From: the human T2T-CHM13v2.0 reference genome, Homo sapiens
Assembly (NCBI RefSeq): GCF_009914755.1
Contig: NC_060936.1
DNA length: 64,000 nt
Strand: one strand, 5' to 3'
The number at the start of each line of letters is the position of its first letter. The first letter of the stretch is position 1. The notes under the pieces were generated by a model, which saw nothing but the letters and a program-made list of their open reading frames with translations, searched no databases and was not told where the DNA came from. Positions 58,096 through 61,297 of this stretch are shown here, piece by piece. A program made the translations under genes and the position numbers.

Positions 58096-58107
58096 TTCTT
58101 CGTTTCT
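58096..58107. repeat. Target-site duplication, left copy (ttcttcgtttct). The right copy is at 60587-60598.
   Basis: Exact 12-mer on both sides of the insertion (15 nt with one mismatch). Joining the two flanks rebuilds a MIR-like sequence. Confidence 0.85.
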
Positions 58108-58449
58108 TTCTTTTTTTTTTTTTTTACTTTCATGCAAAATCTTTATTTGGAACATGTGTGTTACTGAGCAGGCCAGCCGCCATCCTGAAATAGCAAGGGT
58201 ATTTACATTGTGCAGAGAAACATAACAGCTCCTTGAAGACATTCATCTGTGCTTGGCCGGTATTTTATCTGGTACTTTGCTCTGCTTCTCTCTTCCCTGT
58301 GCTCATTATTCTTCATGCACCCTCACTCCTTTTCACCTTAAGGCATCCTGTACCAGCTGACCTATGGGCAATGACCGAAGCCAACAATCAGCCGCTACCA
58401 ATTGTGTCTTTCTGGGACCCATTCTACCTGCCTTAGGTATTAATGGTGC
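58108..58449 (-). pseudogene. Retrotransposed terminal-exon-like segment of an unidentified transcript, fused downstream of the APOBEC3 retrocopy
   Basis: On the minus strand: ttctttctttag| acceptor at 58450, about 325 nt of non-repeat sequence, AATAAA (58142-58147), poly(A) (58111-58125), then the TSD. Confidence 0.7.
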
Positions 58450-58484
58450 CTAAAGAAAGAATAAACAGATGAAAGTTTCTGTGG

Positions 58485-58645
58485 TTAGCTGGCCATGGTG
58501 GTGCACACCTGTAGTCCCAGCTACTTAGGAGGTTGAGGTGGGGACAGCACTTGAGCCCAGGAGCTCGAGGCTGCAGTGAGCCATGATCACACCACTGCAC
58601 TCCAGCCTGGGCTATAGAGCCAGACCCTGTTTCAAGGAGAAAAAA
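58485..58645 (+). mobile_element. Alu right-arm monomer (FRAM/AluJ-like)
   Basis: cctgtagtcccagctac...gaggctgcagtgagcc...cactccagcctggg. Flanked by an aaagtttct(g/t)tgg direct repeat. Confidence 0.85.
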
Positions 58646-58690
58646 GTTTCTTTGGCGTTGCCAAGCCTTGTCTTCACCAAATTTTAGAAG

Positions 58691-60510
58691 TTTTTTTTTT
58701 ATTTAGTATTTCATTTTATTCTTCTACATATAAAATCAAATGGTCACTGGATTAGTAAATTTGAAAACTTTCTGTGTGTATTGACCATAATCTTAACTAC
58801 TGTATCCTTGAAACATGGTATAAATTTTTGATTAAAAGTAATTCACTCTGATTTTTTTAAAAATCTACTTGTCAGCCAGGCACAGTGGCTCACACTTGTA
58901 ATCCCAGCACTTTGGGAGGCCAAGGTGGGTGGATCATGAGGTCAAGTGTTCGAGACCGGCCTGGCCAACATAGTGAAACCCCATCTCTACTAAAAATACA
59001 AAAAAAAATTAGCCAGGCTTGGTGGCGGGCGCCTGTAATCCCAGCTACTCAGGAGGCTGAGGCAGGAGAGTCACTTGAACCTGGGAGGCGGAGGTTGCAG
59101 TGAGCCAAGATTGTGCCACTGCACTCCAGCCCAGACAATAGTGCGAGACTCTGTCTCAAAAAAAAAAAAAAAAAAAAAACTACTTGTCAGGAGCTCATTG
59201 CTTTGCTAGTGTCCACTGCTCAGCCAGAGATAGTGGTGAATGGCCTGTTTGCATTTCTTGAAAGATTTCCATTCTGCTGCTCAACACAGGTTTTCTGCCT
59301 TCTTTAGAGTCTGAGGTCCATCCTATGGTTTTCCTGATTCTGGAGAATGGCCTGCAGCCTCCCACTTAGGGCTTGACTGTGCTCATCTAGTCCATCCCAG
59401 GGCTGGAAGGGACATCCCTGGTGGTCCACAAAGGTGACCCAGCAGTGCCTAAACTTCCGGAGGTCATGATGGAGATTTGGGTCCCAGCCCTCTGCAGCAT
59501 GCACAGCCCCTCATATCCTGGGAGATAATTATAGATGCATGCAGCGAAGATGTGCAGGCTCACACATCTGTTCTCCCAATGAAATGTAGCCACTTGCTGG
59601 GCACAGCTGAAGCAGGGACTCCAGGAGATGAACCAGGTGACCCTGTAGCACTGAGCCCGGTCCAGCTTCCAAAAGGAAATCAGGTACAGGAAGCACTGCT
59701 CTGCATGGAAATCTTAATAGCAACTGAGATTATTCAAAGCCTGGCTGGGTAGGATGCCCTTGTTGCTGGTCCAGAGGGACCCAGGCATCATTGTTTTGGC
59801 ACTCCACCTTGCAGCACAGGTAGGTCTGGTGCTGCCCAGAGACTGAAGGATCATTGGTAAAATTGTAAGTGAATGTGTCTGAGAATCTCCCCCAGCATGC
59901 TGTGCAGTAATGCATAATTTGTATTCAGTTGCTTCCAAGGATCAAATAGCATTCTTTGGTTGTACACAAATTTGTCCCAACAGTGTTGAAATTCATCATA
60001 GTTCATGATCTTCATGCTGGCATGTGGACTGTTTTTTCTGACACCATCTGTGAAGCTCCTCTTGGTAATCTGCTTCCCAGAAGTAGTAGAGGTGGGCAAC
60101 GAAGATGGTCAGGGTGACCTTGCCATCCTTGGCCAGGAACTCTGCCACGTTCCCTGCATACTCTGAGCAGGGACTCCAGGAGATGTACCAGATGACCAGG
60201 TAGTCCTGGTCACGATGCAGCCTCGAGTTGCAGAACCAATCTACGAATCTCATCTCTGGGTGGTGTTCAGGCTTGGAATAGACCTGGCCTCCAAAGATCC
60301 TTGCGTCCAAAGGGGGCTTTGAGGGGTCCTTCTTTGTTTTCATTTTGTAGCACAGCCAGGTGGTGTTCCAACCTGAGAGGATGGGTCTGTTTTCAAAGTT
60401 GTAGTAGAATGTGCCTGGATACATCCACTCCATCAGGTTTCTGATCTGAGGCTTCATGTGCAGCCTTCTTGGCAGGCTTGCCCTGACCATGATCTTTGTC
60501 TGAAATTTGT
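58691..60510 (-). pseudogene. Processed (intronless) APOBEC3G-like Z2-Z1 double-domain retrocopy, disrupted. ATG at 60457, homology to the A3G C-terminus ends near 59328, followed by 3'UTR and poly(A).
   Basis: Translates as MKPQIRN...YNFENRPILS...HPEMRF...WYISWSPC...YYFW, then MKIMNYDEFQHCW...[14 protein letters not shown]...ISWSPCFSC, and [32 protein letters not shown]. No introns. Several frameshifts plus an in-frame TAA (59714-59716). A3-like 3'UTR with AATAAA (58715-58720) and A10 tail (58691-58700). Confidence 0.96.
58875..59179 (+). mobile_element. AluS (Sg/Sc-like) inserted into the APOBEC3 retrocopy 3'UTR
   Basis: Full dimer with A tail. TSD ctacttgtcag at 58865-58875 and 59180-59190. 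Confidence 0.95.
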
Positions 60511-61297
60511 CCCCTGTCCCTACCTCTAAGATGTTTCTGCTTAGCTTCTCTGACAGTGAGGGCTCGAATTTCAGCTGACCCAGCATTTCTTCGTTTCTGA
60601 AGACAAGGTGGTTTTACCATTTAAGCTTCTGATAAGGATGAAATAGGTTGACCAATGTGGAGTTCCCTCTGGCTGCCTGTCACCATCCCTAAAATCCCAT
60701 CACAAGTCAATCCTTCCCAGTAAGGCACTGGTGCCCAGGCAGTGGGCTAGGTATTGTAAACTGCCTGCCATCCACCAGGCTATCATCTGCCAGCAGGCAA
60801 GGCTGAGAGCCTCCATTCCACCTCCCTGTATGGAATTTGCTCCACAACCGCAGTCCCAACATCTGGAGGCAAACTGGAGACTTGTTCACTCATCTTGATG
60901 TTGCTCTGAAGGTGGAAAACATCTGCATAGTGGAAACCAGGGAAAAGATACCCTGGATCTGCCTCTTTCTGTGTTAGGCTTCTGGGCCCCACGGGACCCC
61001 CAGGTATTTGGCTGTGTGTTGGTGTCTTAGCGTCATCCAGTGTCCAGCACAGACTTTAATGCCCAGTTGACTATGATTTCTAAGTGAAGGGATAAACACA
61101 GGAAGTCTGTGGTCACAGTGGTACCAGCCAAACCCTTAACAGAAACCTGGTCCGGAAAAGAACTACAAAACAATATGAGGAGGAGGGAGGCATCTGGTTC
61201 CTTTATTTTCTGGCTGTAATAAATCAGACAACAGGGAAAAGAAAAGGCCAAGGGAGGTGGAAGCACTTGATAGAAACCTCCTTTGTCTGTGATTACT

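What the first reader, a model, noticed from the sequence alone, without database searches (positions are those of the whole stretch)
58096..60598. APOBEC3G-like retrocopy is part of a chimeric insertion with two poly(A) tails under a single TSD
Seen, reading the minus strand: TSD (60598-60587), ~130 nt leader, complete A3G-like CDS, A3 3'UTR, AATAAA and A10 (58700-58691). Then come ~70 nt of intron-like DNA (plus an Alu monomer with its own TSD), a splice acceptor ttctttctttag|, a ~325 nt exon-like segment, a second AATAAA, A15, and the same TSD (58107-58096). Removing the unit rejoins a MIR. I see no convincing TSD around the A3 part alone. Inference: the RNA copied here was already chimeric. 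Most simply, a first A3G retrocopy landed just upstream of another gene's last exon, was transcribed through to that gene's poly(A) site, and was retrotransposed again (a retrocopy of a retrocopy, or 3' transduction). That would imply a germline-expressed donor A3 retrogene elsewhere, possibly since lost. Alternatives are L1 template switching between two RNAs or readthrough at the native A3 locus. I recall an ancient simian A3G retrocopy ('A3I') being described, but not this architecture; that needs verifying.
Basis: partly seen in the sequence, partly recalled or inferred. Interest (0 to 1): 0.85.

Follow-up and report, generated by a model that had tools for sequence, protein, structure and literature searches.

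The report
APOBEC3 retrocopy inside a JCAD retrocopy
The known ancient APOBEC3G-like retrocopy (A3I) on human chromosome 12 sits inside a retrocopied fragment of the JCAD gene's 3' untranslated region, so the two poly(A) tails under one target-site duplication have an ordinary source, though whether one or two insertion events made it stays open.

Summary
The sequence features are real. A 12-nt direct repeat (15 nt with one mismatch) bounds a unit with two AATAAA/poly(A) ends. The labels on the non-A3 parts were wrong.

The "intron-like DNA", the Alu monomer, the "splice acceptor" and the "exon-like" segment are one contiguous copy of the last ~570 nt of the JCAD (chr10) 3'UTR. It ends at JCAD's annotated 3' end. 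The first 55 nt of the "leader" are JCAD too, from just upstream. On chr10 the two pieces are separated by only 7 nt.

So the unit is a 5'-truncated JCAD 3'UTR retrocopy interrupted by an A3G-like retrocopy that ends at the native A3G poly(A) site. The A3 part matches the published A3I: a 153-codon ORF and the only such locus outside chr22.

The inner junctions have no TSD, and 7 nt of JCAD are missing there.

- Best reading (0.5): A3I inserted, atypically, into a pre-existing JCAD retrocopy.
- Rival (0.3): one L1 event with two template switches.

Primate orthologues would decide. Interest is modest.

The parts
60587..60598 (-). 5' copy of the outer target-site duplication (12 nt exact; 15 nt, 60584-60598, with 1 mismatch)
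   Evidence: D15; 0 of 2000 shuffles
60529..60583 (-). JCAD 3'UTR retrocopy, 5' piece. It corresponds to chr10:30044478-30044415 (minus strand): 53 of 55 aligned sites identical, plus a 9-nt gap.
60505..60528 (-). 24 G-rich nt of unresolved origin between the JCAD piece and the start of significant A3 exon-1 homology
58701..60504 (-). A3G-like processed retrocopy (A3I; RefSeq pseudogene LOC196469 covers 59172-60504). Exons 1-8 and the 3'UTR are colinear with chr22 APOBEC3G. It is interrupted by a later Alu.
59996..60457 (-). A3 ORF of 153 codons plus stop (N-terminal deaminase domain). The same frame is open upstream to the ATG at 60586-60584, giving 196 aa.
   Evidence: 153 codons as in PMC7263822
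58875..59179 (+). Full-length dimeric Alu inserted later into the A3 3'UTR, antisense to the unit. It is flanked by a 10-11-nt repeat (59189-59180 / 58874-58865).
58691..58720 (-). A3 poly(A) signal (58720-58715) and A10 tail (58700-58691). The tail starts at chr22:39558150, 9 nt before the RefSeq gene end, and chr22 has no A-run there.
58125..58690 (-). JCAD 3'UTR retrocopy, 3' piece. It corresponds to chr10:30044407-30043841: 90.2% identical over 563 sites. It contains the Alu monomer (about 58494-58645, already in the parent) and the JCAD AATAAA (58147-58142).
58108..58125 (-). Outer poly(A) tail: A15 (the first A could be JCAD-templated) followed by GAA
58096..58107 (-). 3' copy of the outer target-site duplication (15 nt: 58093-58107)

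Best explanation
Shown: the unit between the two TSD copies is a 5'-truncated, polyadenylated retrocopy of the last ~630 nt of the JCAD mRNA (3'UTR, chr10). It is split 55 nt from its 5' end by a near full-length, polyadenylated retrocopy of an A3G-like mRNA, the published A3I. All parts have the same orientation.

Inferred, most likely history (two L1-mediated events at chr12):
1. A JCAD mRNA was reverse-transcribed at a nick in this site. This gave the 12-15-nt TSD, the A15 tail and the 5' truncation.
2. Soon afterwards, before the simian radiation, an A3G-like mRNA was inserted into that young JCAD pseudogene by an atypical event. It made no TSD, removed 7 nt of the target (CGGGGGG), and used a site unlike the L1 endonuclease consensus. 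That pattern fits an insertion with target-site deletion or an endonuclease-independent insertion at a break.
3. A dimeric Alu later entered the A3 3'UTR.

The product is a dead pseudogene. In apes its remaining 153-codon A3 ORF is extended upstream into JCAD- and TSD-derived sequence.
For: JCAD origin:
- The 3' segment hits only itself and chr10:30043837-30044197, at 90% (2 matches, 2 candidates scored).
- The JCAD gene ends at chr10:30043840.
- The leader hits chr10:30044415-30044478.
- chr10 is contiguous across both pieces, with only 7 nt between them. It carries the same Alu monomer and ends ...AGTA where chr12 starts its A-run.

A3 part:
- It is colinear with A3G exons 1-8 and ends at the native poly(A) site.
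- Its A3 homology starts about 64 nt upstream of the ATG in A3G terms. That is inside the 58-361 nt range of mapped A3G start sites (PMC1920263 passages).

Outer TSD: highly non-random.

Ages:
- JCAD pieces have K2P 0.106 over 563 sites.
- Changes assigned to the chr12 lineage are 2-5 of ~150 sites in the JCAD Alu-monomer part.
- A3I-only changes are 5 of 116 (exon 7) and 6 of 157 (distal 3'UTR).
- These figures fit both parts dating to about the simian ancestor, the date published for A3I.

Precedent: a nested retrocopy-in-retrocopy is reported for a squirrel monkey A3G retrocopy in PMC7263822.
Against: - The inner insertion lacks the normal hallmarks. It has no TSD, 7 nt of target are lost, and the site does not resemble the L1 endonuclease consensus (by eye; consensus recalled).
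- Landing in the same orientation inside a ~630-bp pseudogene that was itself young is a coincidence that a one-step origin would not need.
- No age gap between the JCAD and A3 parts could be resolved.
- The order of events is inferred only. No genome with the JCAD piece alone was seen, because no other primate genome could be searched here.
Confidence: 0.5

Rival explanations
1. One L1 event with two template switches. Reverse transcription primed on the JCAD poly(A) tail and copied ~570 nt. It left the JCAD RNA just before its G-run and moved to the poly(A) tail of an A3G-like mRNA. It copied that mRNA to its 5' end, then re-annealed to the still-tethered JCAD RNA 7 nt upstream of where it had left. 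It copied 55 more nt and was joined to the target. On this reading A3I and the JCAD pieces arrived together as a tripartite (A-B-A) chimeric retrocopy.
For: - There is a single TSD and a single EN-like outer site for the whole unit.
- The inner junctions have no TSD, and the JCAD sequence is colinear with only a 7-nt skip. Both are expected for this model without extra assumptions.
- All parts have the same orientation.
- The third segment is short (55 nt).
- No age gap between the parts is resolvable.
- Single and double template switches by LINE reverse transcriptases are documented. The two human tripartite candidates known in 2007 lacked identifiable flanking repeats (PMC2104539 passages).
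Against: - Returning to the first template is not a described pattern in the passages I read. Reported tripartite elements join three different RNAs.
- It needs an internal acceptor site on the JCAD RNA.
- The predicted JCAD RNA structure around the G-run is not unusual (z = -0.99; 31 of 200 shuffles fold as well), so there is no independent sign of a pause site.
- My rough frequency estimates (recalled, not computed) do not favour it over a TSD-less nested insertion.
Confidence: 0.3
2. Retrocopy of a chimeric JCAD allele. An A3 retrocopy first inserted into the JCAD 3'UTR on chr10. A JCAD transcript of that allele read through the A3 poly(A) signal to the JCAD poly(A) site. It was retrocopied, 5'-truncated, to chr12, and the chr10 donor allele was later lost.
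For: It gives the same final anatomy: JCAD on both sides of A3, two poly(A) ends, and one TSD. Some A3I-only divergence estimates (10 of 160 and 20 of 241 sites) exceed the chr12-lineage estimate for the JCAD part (2-5 of ~150).
Against: - Human chr10 is intact and contiguous at the site, with no A3 copy or scar. The donor must therefore have been a never-fixed allele that was nevertheless expressed in the germline and retrocopied.
- The A3 AATAAA would end most transcripts before the JCAD end.
- It still needs the same TSD-less inner insertion as the best explanation, plus extra steps.
- The divergence excess is explained by concerted evolution among A3 paralogues. A3G and A3F exon 2 differ at 1 of 160 sites.
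Confidence: 0.07
3. One reading: either readthrough at the native APOBEC3G locus, or an A3 retrogene in an intron upstream of a last exon, with splicing or 3' transduction of that exon.
For: None beyond the presence of two poly(A) ends and, in chr12 only, an AG after a pyrimidine run.
Against: - The downstream segment maps to chr10 JCAD, not chr22.
- The sequence from the A10 tail to the end is contiguous genomic JCAD 3'UTR.
- The parent has GG where chr12 has the 'acceptor' AG.
- JCAD sequence also precedes A3.
Confidence: 0.02

Closest known systems
A3I, the ancient simian APOBEC3G-like retrocopy (Yang et al. 2020, eLife, PMC7263822; section 5 read in full, other passages seen)
   Same: - It is an intronless A3G-like copy of more than 1,100 bp outside the chr22 A3 locus.
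- In the human genome only this locus fits. In one search the other non-chr22 hits are a 286-nt chr4 fragment, a 62-nt chr12p hit and the JCAD hit.
- The A3 ORF has 153 codons, as published.
- It is a pseudogene with several breaks.
   Different: The paper's main text does not mention JCAD/KIAA1462, target-site duplications or the flanks (0 occurrences each).
Nested retrocopy-in-retrocopy, e.g. the squirrel monkey A3G retrocopy carrying a 286-bp piece of another A3G retrocopy (PMC7263822, passage)
   Same: One processed copy lies inside another, and each derives from an mRNA.
   Different: Here the host is a copy of an unrelated gene's 3'UTR. The inner copy lacks its own TSD and removed 7 nt of its target.
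Tripartite chimeric retroelements made by double template switching of LINE reverse transcriptase (Gogvadze et al. 2007, PMC2104539; passages seen)
   Same: Several RNA copies are fused head to tail in one orientation. One TSD surrounds the whole, a poly(A) tail sits at the 3' end, and there are no repeats at the internal junctions.
   Different: Described cases join three different RNAs, with an element of the LINE/SINE kind as first template. Here the first and third segments are the same mRNA, interrupted at one point, and no L1 sequence is included.
L1 insertions with target-site deletion, or endonuclease-independent insertions (named from recall; only a passing mention of target-site deletions was seen, in PMC2912911)
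   Same: The inner A3 junctions have no TSD, a small loss of target DNA, and a non-consensus site.
   Different: The poly(A) tail is retained and the deletion is only 7 nt. This class is assigned by exclusion, not by a positive test.

Membership tests
Processed (L1-mediated) retrocopy: JCAD part | Colinear with the mature mRNA's 3' end and ending at the parent's poly(A) site with an untemplated A-tail | tested here: met
   chr10:30044478-30043841 is colinear. The chr12 A15 starts where chr10 continues with non-A sequence. The RefSeq JCAD end is 30043840. I could not see JCAD's exon table, so that these 630 nt lie in the last exon is inferred from colinearity and recall.
Processed (L1-mediated) retrocopy: JCAD part | Flanking target-site duplication | tested here: met
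   12 nt exact, or 14 of 15. 0 of 2000 shuffles reach the score.
Processed (L1-mediated) retrocopy: A3 part | Intronless and colinear with the parent's exons, ending at the parent's poly(A) site with an A-tail | tested here: met
   eight exon blocks in order; the tail begins 17 nt after AATAAA, where chr22 has no A-run.
Processed (L1-mediated) retrocopy: A3 part | Its own flanking target-site duplication | tested here: not met
   no repeat of 9 nt or more links the junctions; 1091 of 2000 shuffles score as well; 7 nt of JCAD are missing instead.
A3I (Yang et al. 2020) | The single A3G-like intronless locus outside the A3 cluster, with a 153-codon ORF over the N-terminal domain | tested here: met
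   compared with the text of PMC7263822 section 5.
A3I (Yang et al. 2020) | Shared synteny in all simians, absence in prosimians, and a shared nonsense codon at position 261 | not testable with these tools
   No primate genomes were available and the supplements were closed. A gorilla protein of 196 aa is 97% identical over the full ORF, JCAD-derived leader included. That shows only that apes share the arrangement.
AID/APOBEC cytidine deaminase (protein family) | Deaminase domain recognised by profile | tested here: met
   PF18782 at 7.2e-43, PF08210 at 1.8e-29 and PF18771 at 6e-17 on the 196-aa ORF. A C-terminal fragment ORF matches PF05240 at 1.7e-13.
AID/APOBEC cytidine deaminase (protein family) | Intact zinc-binding motif (H-x-E ... 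P-C-x2-4-C, recalled) | tested here: not met
   the ORF has HPE and SPC, but no second cysteine within the next four residues. By inspection against a recalled motif. The second domain is broken by frameshifts and stops.
Template-switch chimeric retroelement | Copies of different RNAs fused in one orientation under one TSD, with a 3' poly(A) and no repeats at the internal junctions | tested here: met
Template-switch chimeric retroelement | All parts arrived at the same time (same presence/absence across species) | not testable with these tools
   Only the human genome could be searched. Divergence cannot resolve an age gap.
   JCAD sequence lies on both sides of A3. Human chr10 has no A3 copy at the site.

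The most novel reading that the evidence does not exclude
A3I was not born by a simple retrocopying event. It would be the middle segment of a single L1 reverse-transcription run that jumped from a JCAD mRNA to an A3G-like mRNA and back to the same JCAD molecule. That would make this a human tripartite (A-B-A) chimeric retrocopy with a clean 12-15-nt TSD. It would be direct genomic evidence that L1 reverse transcriptase can return to a tethered first template, and would mean an antiviral gene copy was created as a by-product of template jumping.
Probability: 0.3. Interest if true: 0.55.

Novelty: new member of a known kind. Interest (0 to 1): 0.35.

Why it matters
- **Explains the anatomy.** The odd two-tail structure of a published primate APOBEC3 retrocopy now has a source. 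The source gene of the non-A3 sequence is JCAD, a retrocopy fragment that RefSeq leaves unannotated in this window.
- **Extends A3I.** The true extent of the A3I insertion is about 1.5 kb of mRNA including the 3'UTR, not about 1.1 kb.
- **Removes a prediction.** There is no need to posit a lost, germline-expressed A3 retrogene elsewhere.
- **Sharp test case for L1 biology.** It is a TSD-less insertion sitting exactly inside another retrocopy. One alignment of primate orthologues can classify it as either a nested atypical insertion or a double template switch.
- **Leader of the ape ORF.** The upstream in-frame extension of the ape ORF, and any promoter context, come from JCAD 3'UTR and target DNA, not from A3.

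Tried and rejected
- **Alu swamping.** A search with the whole A3 part was swamped by the embedded Alu (62 matches, nearly all Alu). I repeated it in two Alu-free pieces.
- **MIR claim.** Whole-genome searches of the two flanks gave no non-self hit upstream. Downstream they gave 9 short non-self hits, all within query positions 65-131. Sensitive blastn of both flanks against the rest of the window and the fetched loci, and against 9 loci fetched around the hits, found no copy spanning the junction. The claim stays untested. To my eye, against a recalled consensus, it looks plausible.
- **Degenerate inner TSD.** A gapped match between the 24-nt stretch and the JCAD sequence after the A10 tail was considered and rejected as not better than chance.
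- **Origin of the 24 nt.** Blastn against the exon-1 regions of A3A, A3B, A3C, A3D, A3F and A3G and three intronic exon-1-like relics gave significant homology only from window 60504 onward. The MAFFT alignment upstream of that point is not convincing.
- **G-run as a pause site.** The RNA fold is not unusual.
- **Dating the order of events.**
  - K2P values.
  - Polarising chr10/chr12 differences with Alu copies as they stand. This made 8 comparisons: the window's own Alu and 7 of 9 fetched loci. L005 and L009 gave no row: either no blastn hit at E <= 1e-5 or a best match shorter than 110 nt; the script did not print which. The outgroups are not independent.
  - Polarising A3I/A3G differences with A3B, A3A or A3F. 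The A3F and exon-8 comparisons are invalid because the paralogues are homogenised.
  - None resolves an age gap.
- **Protein search for the JCAD-derived leader in other primates**. 25 of 25 candidates were scored and 23 further candidates of unnamed source were left out. Only the gorilla cluster covers the leader. New World monkey hits start at the A3 ATG or in the A3 5'UTR.
- **Literature.** Nothing was found for LOC196469, for APOBEC3 + chromosome 12 + pseudogene + retrocopy, or for JCAD + retrocopy. For APOBEC3G + processed pseudogene + chimeric, 22 papers matched and 10 were listed; none concerns this locus by title. For 10.1101/2025.02.02.635956 I saw only the abstract and outline.
- **Not opened.** Supplements were closed and I did not ask for them.
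Full report
**What is in the sequence**

All coordinates below are read on the minus strand.

- The 12-mer AGAAACGAAGAA occurs at 60598-60587 and at 58107-58096. The repeat extends to 15 nt with one mismatch (family D15).
- In a local-alignment test of the two outer junction windows, 0 of 2000 shuffles reached the observed score.
- Between the two copies lie two polyadenylated ends. AATAAA at 58720-58715 is followed by A10 at 58700-58691. AATAAA at 58147-58142 is followed by A15 at 58125-58111.

**Where the non-A3 sequence comes from**

- The 377 nt before the 3' TSD copy match only themselves and chr10:30043837-30044197 (minus strand) at 90% (2 matches from 2 scored candidates).
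- RefSeq places the 3' end of JCAD (junctional cadherin 5 associated, minus strand) at chr10:30043840.
- A search with the Alu-free A3 part also returned chr10:30044415-30044478 for the first ~55 nt after the 5' TSD copy.
- Direct comparison shows that chr10 is one contiguous stretch. Window 60583-60529 equals chr10:30044478-30044415. Window 58691/58690-58125 equals chr10:30044407-30043841. Only 7 nt (CGGGGGG) lie between the two pieces on chr10.
- The Alu monomer and its short flanking repeat are present in the chr10 parent. Compared as it stands with the window's dimeric Alu, the monomer aligns with the arm next to the A-tail (139 nt at 78%).
- chr12 begins its A15 exactly where chr10 continues with unrelated sequence after ...AGTA.

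The "intron-like DNA", the "Alu monomer with its own TSD", the "acceptor" and the "exon" are thus all plain JCAD 3'UTR. The unit is a 5'-truncated JCAD retrocopy of about 630 nt that has something inserted in it. I could not see JCAD's exon table, because only chr12 transcripts were provided. That this stretch is all terminal exon rests on the colinearity and on recall.

**The inserted part**

- Window 60504-58701 is colinear with APOBEC3G exons 1-8 and the 3'UTR on chr22. It is interrupted by a dimeric Alu at about 59179-58875 that has its own 10-11-nt flanking repeat.
- The A10 tail starts at the position of chr22:39558150. That is 17 nt after the A3G AATAAA and 9 nt before the RefSeq gene end, and chr22 has no A-run there.
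- Significant homology to A3 first exons begins at 60504. In A3G terms that is about 64 nt upstream of the ATG. This lies within the 58-361 nt range of mapped A3G transcription starts (PMC1920263, passages). The copy is therefore full length or nearly so.
- The 24 G-rich nt at 60528-60505, between JCAD and that point, could not be assigned.
- Readthrough at the native A3 locus is excluded.

**Identity with A3I**

Yang et al. 2020 (PMC7263822; section 5 read in full, other passages seen) describe A3I as follows:

- exactly one A3G-like intronless region outside the A3 locus in every simian;
- absent from tarsier, bushbaby and mouse lemur;
- about 43 million years old;
- a 153-codon ORF in most species.

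In the human genome this locus is the only multi-exon A3 match outside chr22. The other non-chr22 matches are a 286-nt chr4 fragment annotated APOBEC3AP1, a 62-nt chr12p hit, and the JCAD hit. The ORF from the A3 ATG has 153 codons (196 aa minus a 43-aa upstream extension). It matches AID/APOBEC profiles. So the A3 part is A3I, and it is already known.

The paper's main text has no occurrence of JCAD, KIAA1462, "target site dup", chr12 or LOC196469. Four further literature searches found nothing on this architecture.

**The inner junctions**

- No direct repeat of 9 nt or more links the two A3 junctions. A gapped local alignment of the junction windows is no better than chance (1091 of 2000 shuffles).
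- Instead, 7 nt of JCAD are missing.
- By eye, the inner site does not resemble the L1 endonuclease target (consensus recalled), whereas the outer one does moderately.

**Ages**

- JCAD pieces versus parent: K2P 0.106 over 563 sites for the 3' piece, and 2 differences in 55 sites for the 5' piece.
- A3I versus human A3G: K2P 0.15-0.32 per block, except the exon-7-like block at 0.053.
- Polarising the chr10/chr12 differences in the Alu-monomer part with Alu copies as they stand assigns 2-5 changes to chr12 and 4-12 to chr10, with 3-6 unassigned. This used 8 non-independent outgroups; 2 of 9 fetched loci gave no row.
- With A3B as outgroup, A3I-only changes are 10 of 160 (exon 2), 20 of 241 (exon 6), 5 of 116 (exon 7) and 6 of 157 (distal 3'UTR). 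Comparisons with A3F, and those in exon 8, are invalid because the paralogues are homogenised.
- With a recalled neutral rate near 1e-9 per site per year, all of this fits an origin of both parts around the simian ancestor. No age gap is resolvable.

**Mechanism**

Three histories give this anatomy.

(A) *Two events at chr12.* A JCAD retrocopy forms first. A3I then inserts into it, without a TSD and with a 7-nt target deletion.

(B) *One event.* Reverse transcription starts on JCAD mRNA, switches to the A3 mRNA poly(A) tail, and returns to the JCAD RNA 7 nt upstream.

(C) *Chimeric JCAD allele.* The A3 copy first enters the JCAD 3'UTR on chr10. That chimeric mRNA is retrocopied and the donor allele is then lost.

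How they compare:

- History (C) needs everything that (A) needs, plus a lost allele and readthrough of the A3 poly(A) signal. Human chr10 shows no trace of an insertion.
- Between (A) and (B) the sequence alone does not decide.
- History (A) uses only well-known processes. It has a precedent among A3 retrocopies (nested squirrel monkey copy). But it requires a rare TSD-less insertion to fall, in the same orientation, inside a young 630-bp pseudogene.
- History (B) explains the missing inner hallmarks, the orientation, the tiny skip and the short third segment at once. Double template switches by LINE enzymes are documented (PMC2104539, passages).
- However, a return to the first template is not among the cases described there. 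The predicted RNA structure at the departure point is unremarkable.

I commit to (A) at about 0.5, (B) at about 0.3 and (C) at about 0.07. These weights rest partly on recalled frequencies of TSD-less insertions and of chimeric retrocopies, not on a computation.

**Verdict**

The feature is a known pseudogene (A3I) in a context that the texts I could search do not describe: it lies nested in, or co-inserted with, a JCAD 3'UTR retrocopy. It has no evident function. It is of modest interest, mainly as a clean test case for L1 mechanism.

**Limits**

- No primate genome other than the human reference could be searched, so the order of events is inferred.
- The MIR claim could not be tested.
- The L1 endonuclease consensus, the deaminase zinc motif, the neutral rate and the class frequencies are recalled, not computed.

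Noticed in passing
window 59996-60586 (minus strand): The 153-codon A3I ORF is open upstream for another 43 codons. It runs through the A3 5'UTR, the 24 unresolved nt and the JCAD piece, to an ATG that lies in the extended 5' TSD copy. A 196-aa gorilla protein model ('APOBEC-3G-like', P0001) is 97% identical over the whole length, so annotation pipelines predict this composite ORF in apes.
   Followed up: partly
window 60500-60441; L031, L032, L033 (chr22 intron 4 of A3D, A3B, A3F); L030:745-790: A3I's first exon is closer (85-87% over 53-60 nt) to exon-1-like relics inside intron 4 of A3B, A3D and A3F than to human A3G exon 1 (83% over 35 nt). It shares with the relics 9 nt just before the ATG that human A3G and A3F exon 1 lack.
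   Followed up: partly
window 59340-59457: The exon-7-like block of A3I is 95% identical to A3G (96% to A3A), while the neighbouring blocks are 75-86% identical. The heterogeneity is large and unexplained. Strong conservation of that exon in the parent lineage is one possibility.
   Followed up: partly
chr22 A3G and A3F exon 2 (L022/L030, L024): Human A3G and A3F exon 2 differ at only 1 of 160 aligned sites. In exon 8 and the proximal 3'UTR, A3G, A3B and A3A differ at only 7-10 of 153 sites. This is concerted evolution, and it makes A3 paralogues poor outgroups for dating A3I.
   Followed up: no
G000 chr4:173460007-173460292 (L015): The annotated fragment APOBEC3AP1 matches the exon-6-like part of A3I at 80% over 283 nt, as well as any chr22 exon does. 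I did not examine it further.
   Followed up: no
window 60550-60556 versus L029 (chr10:30044443-30044451 region): A 9-nt indel separates the chr12 JCAD 5' piece from the parent, at a short near-duplicate in chr10. The C-run after the T-run of the Alu monomer is also 3 nt longer in chr10. The direction of either change cannot be told without an outgroup.
   Followed up: no
window 58494-58645 versus chr10:30044207-30044362: With Alu copies as outgroups, more of the differences in the Alu-monomer part fall on the chr10 (functional JCAD 3'UTR) lineage (4-12) than on the chr12 pseudogene lineage (2-5). Numbers are small and the outgroups are not independent. If real, this stretch of the JCAD 3'UTR is not under constraint.
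   Followed up: partly
window 58125-58690, 60529-60583 and 58701-59171: RefSeq's pseudogene LOC196469 covers only 59172-60504. The distal A3 3'UTR beyond the Alu and both JCAD-derived pieces carry no annotation in the table given for this window.
   Followed up: yes
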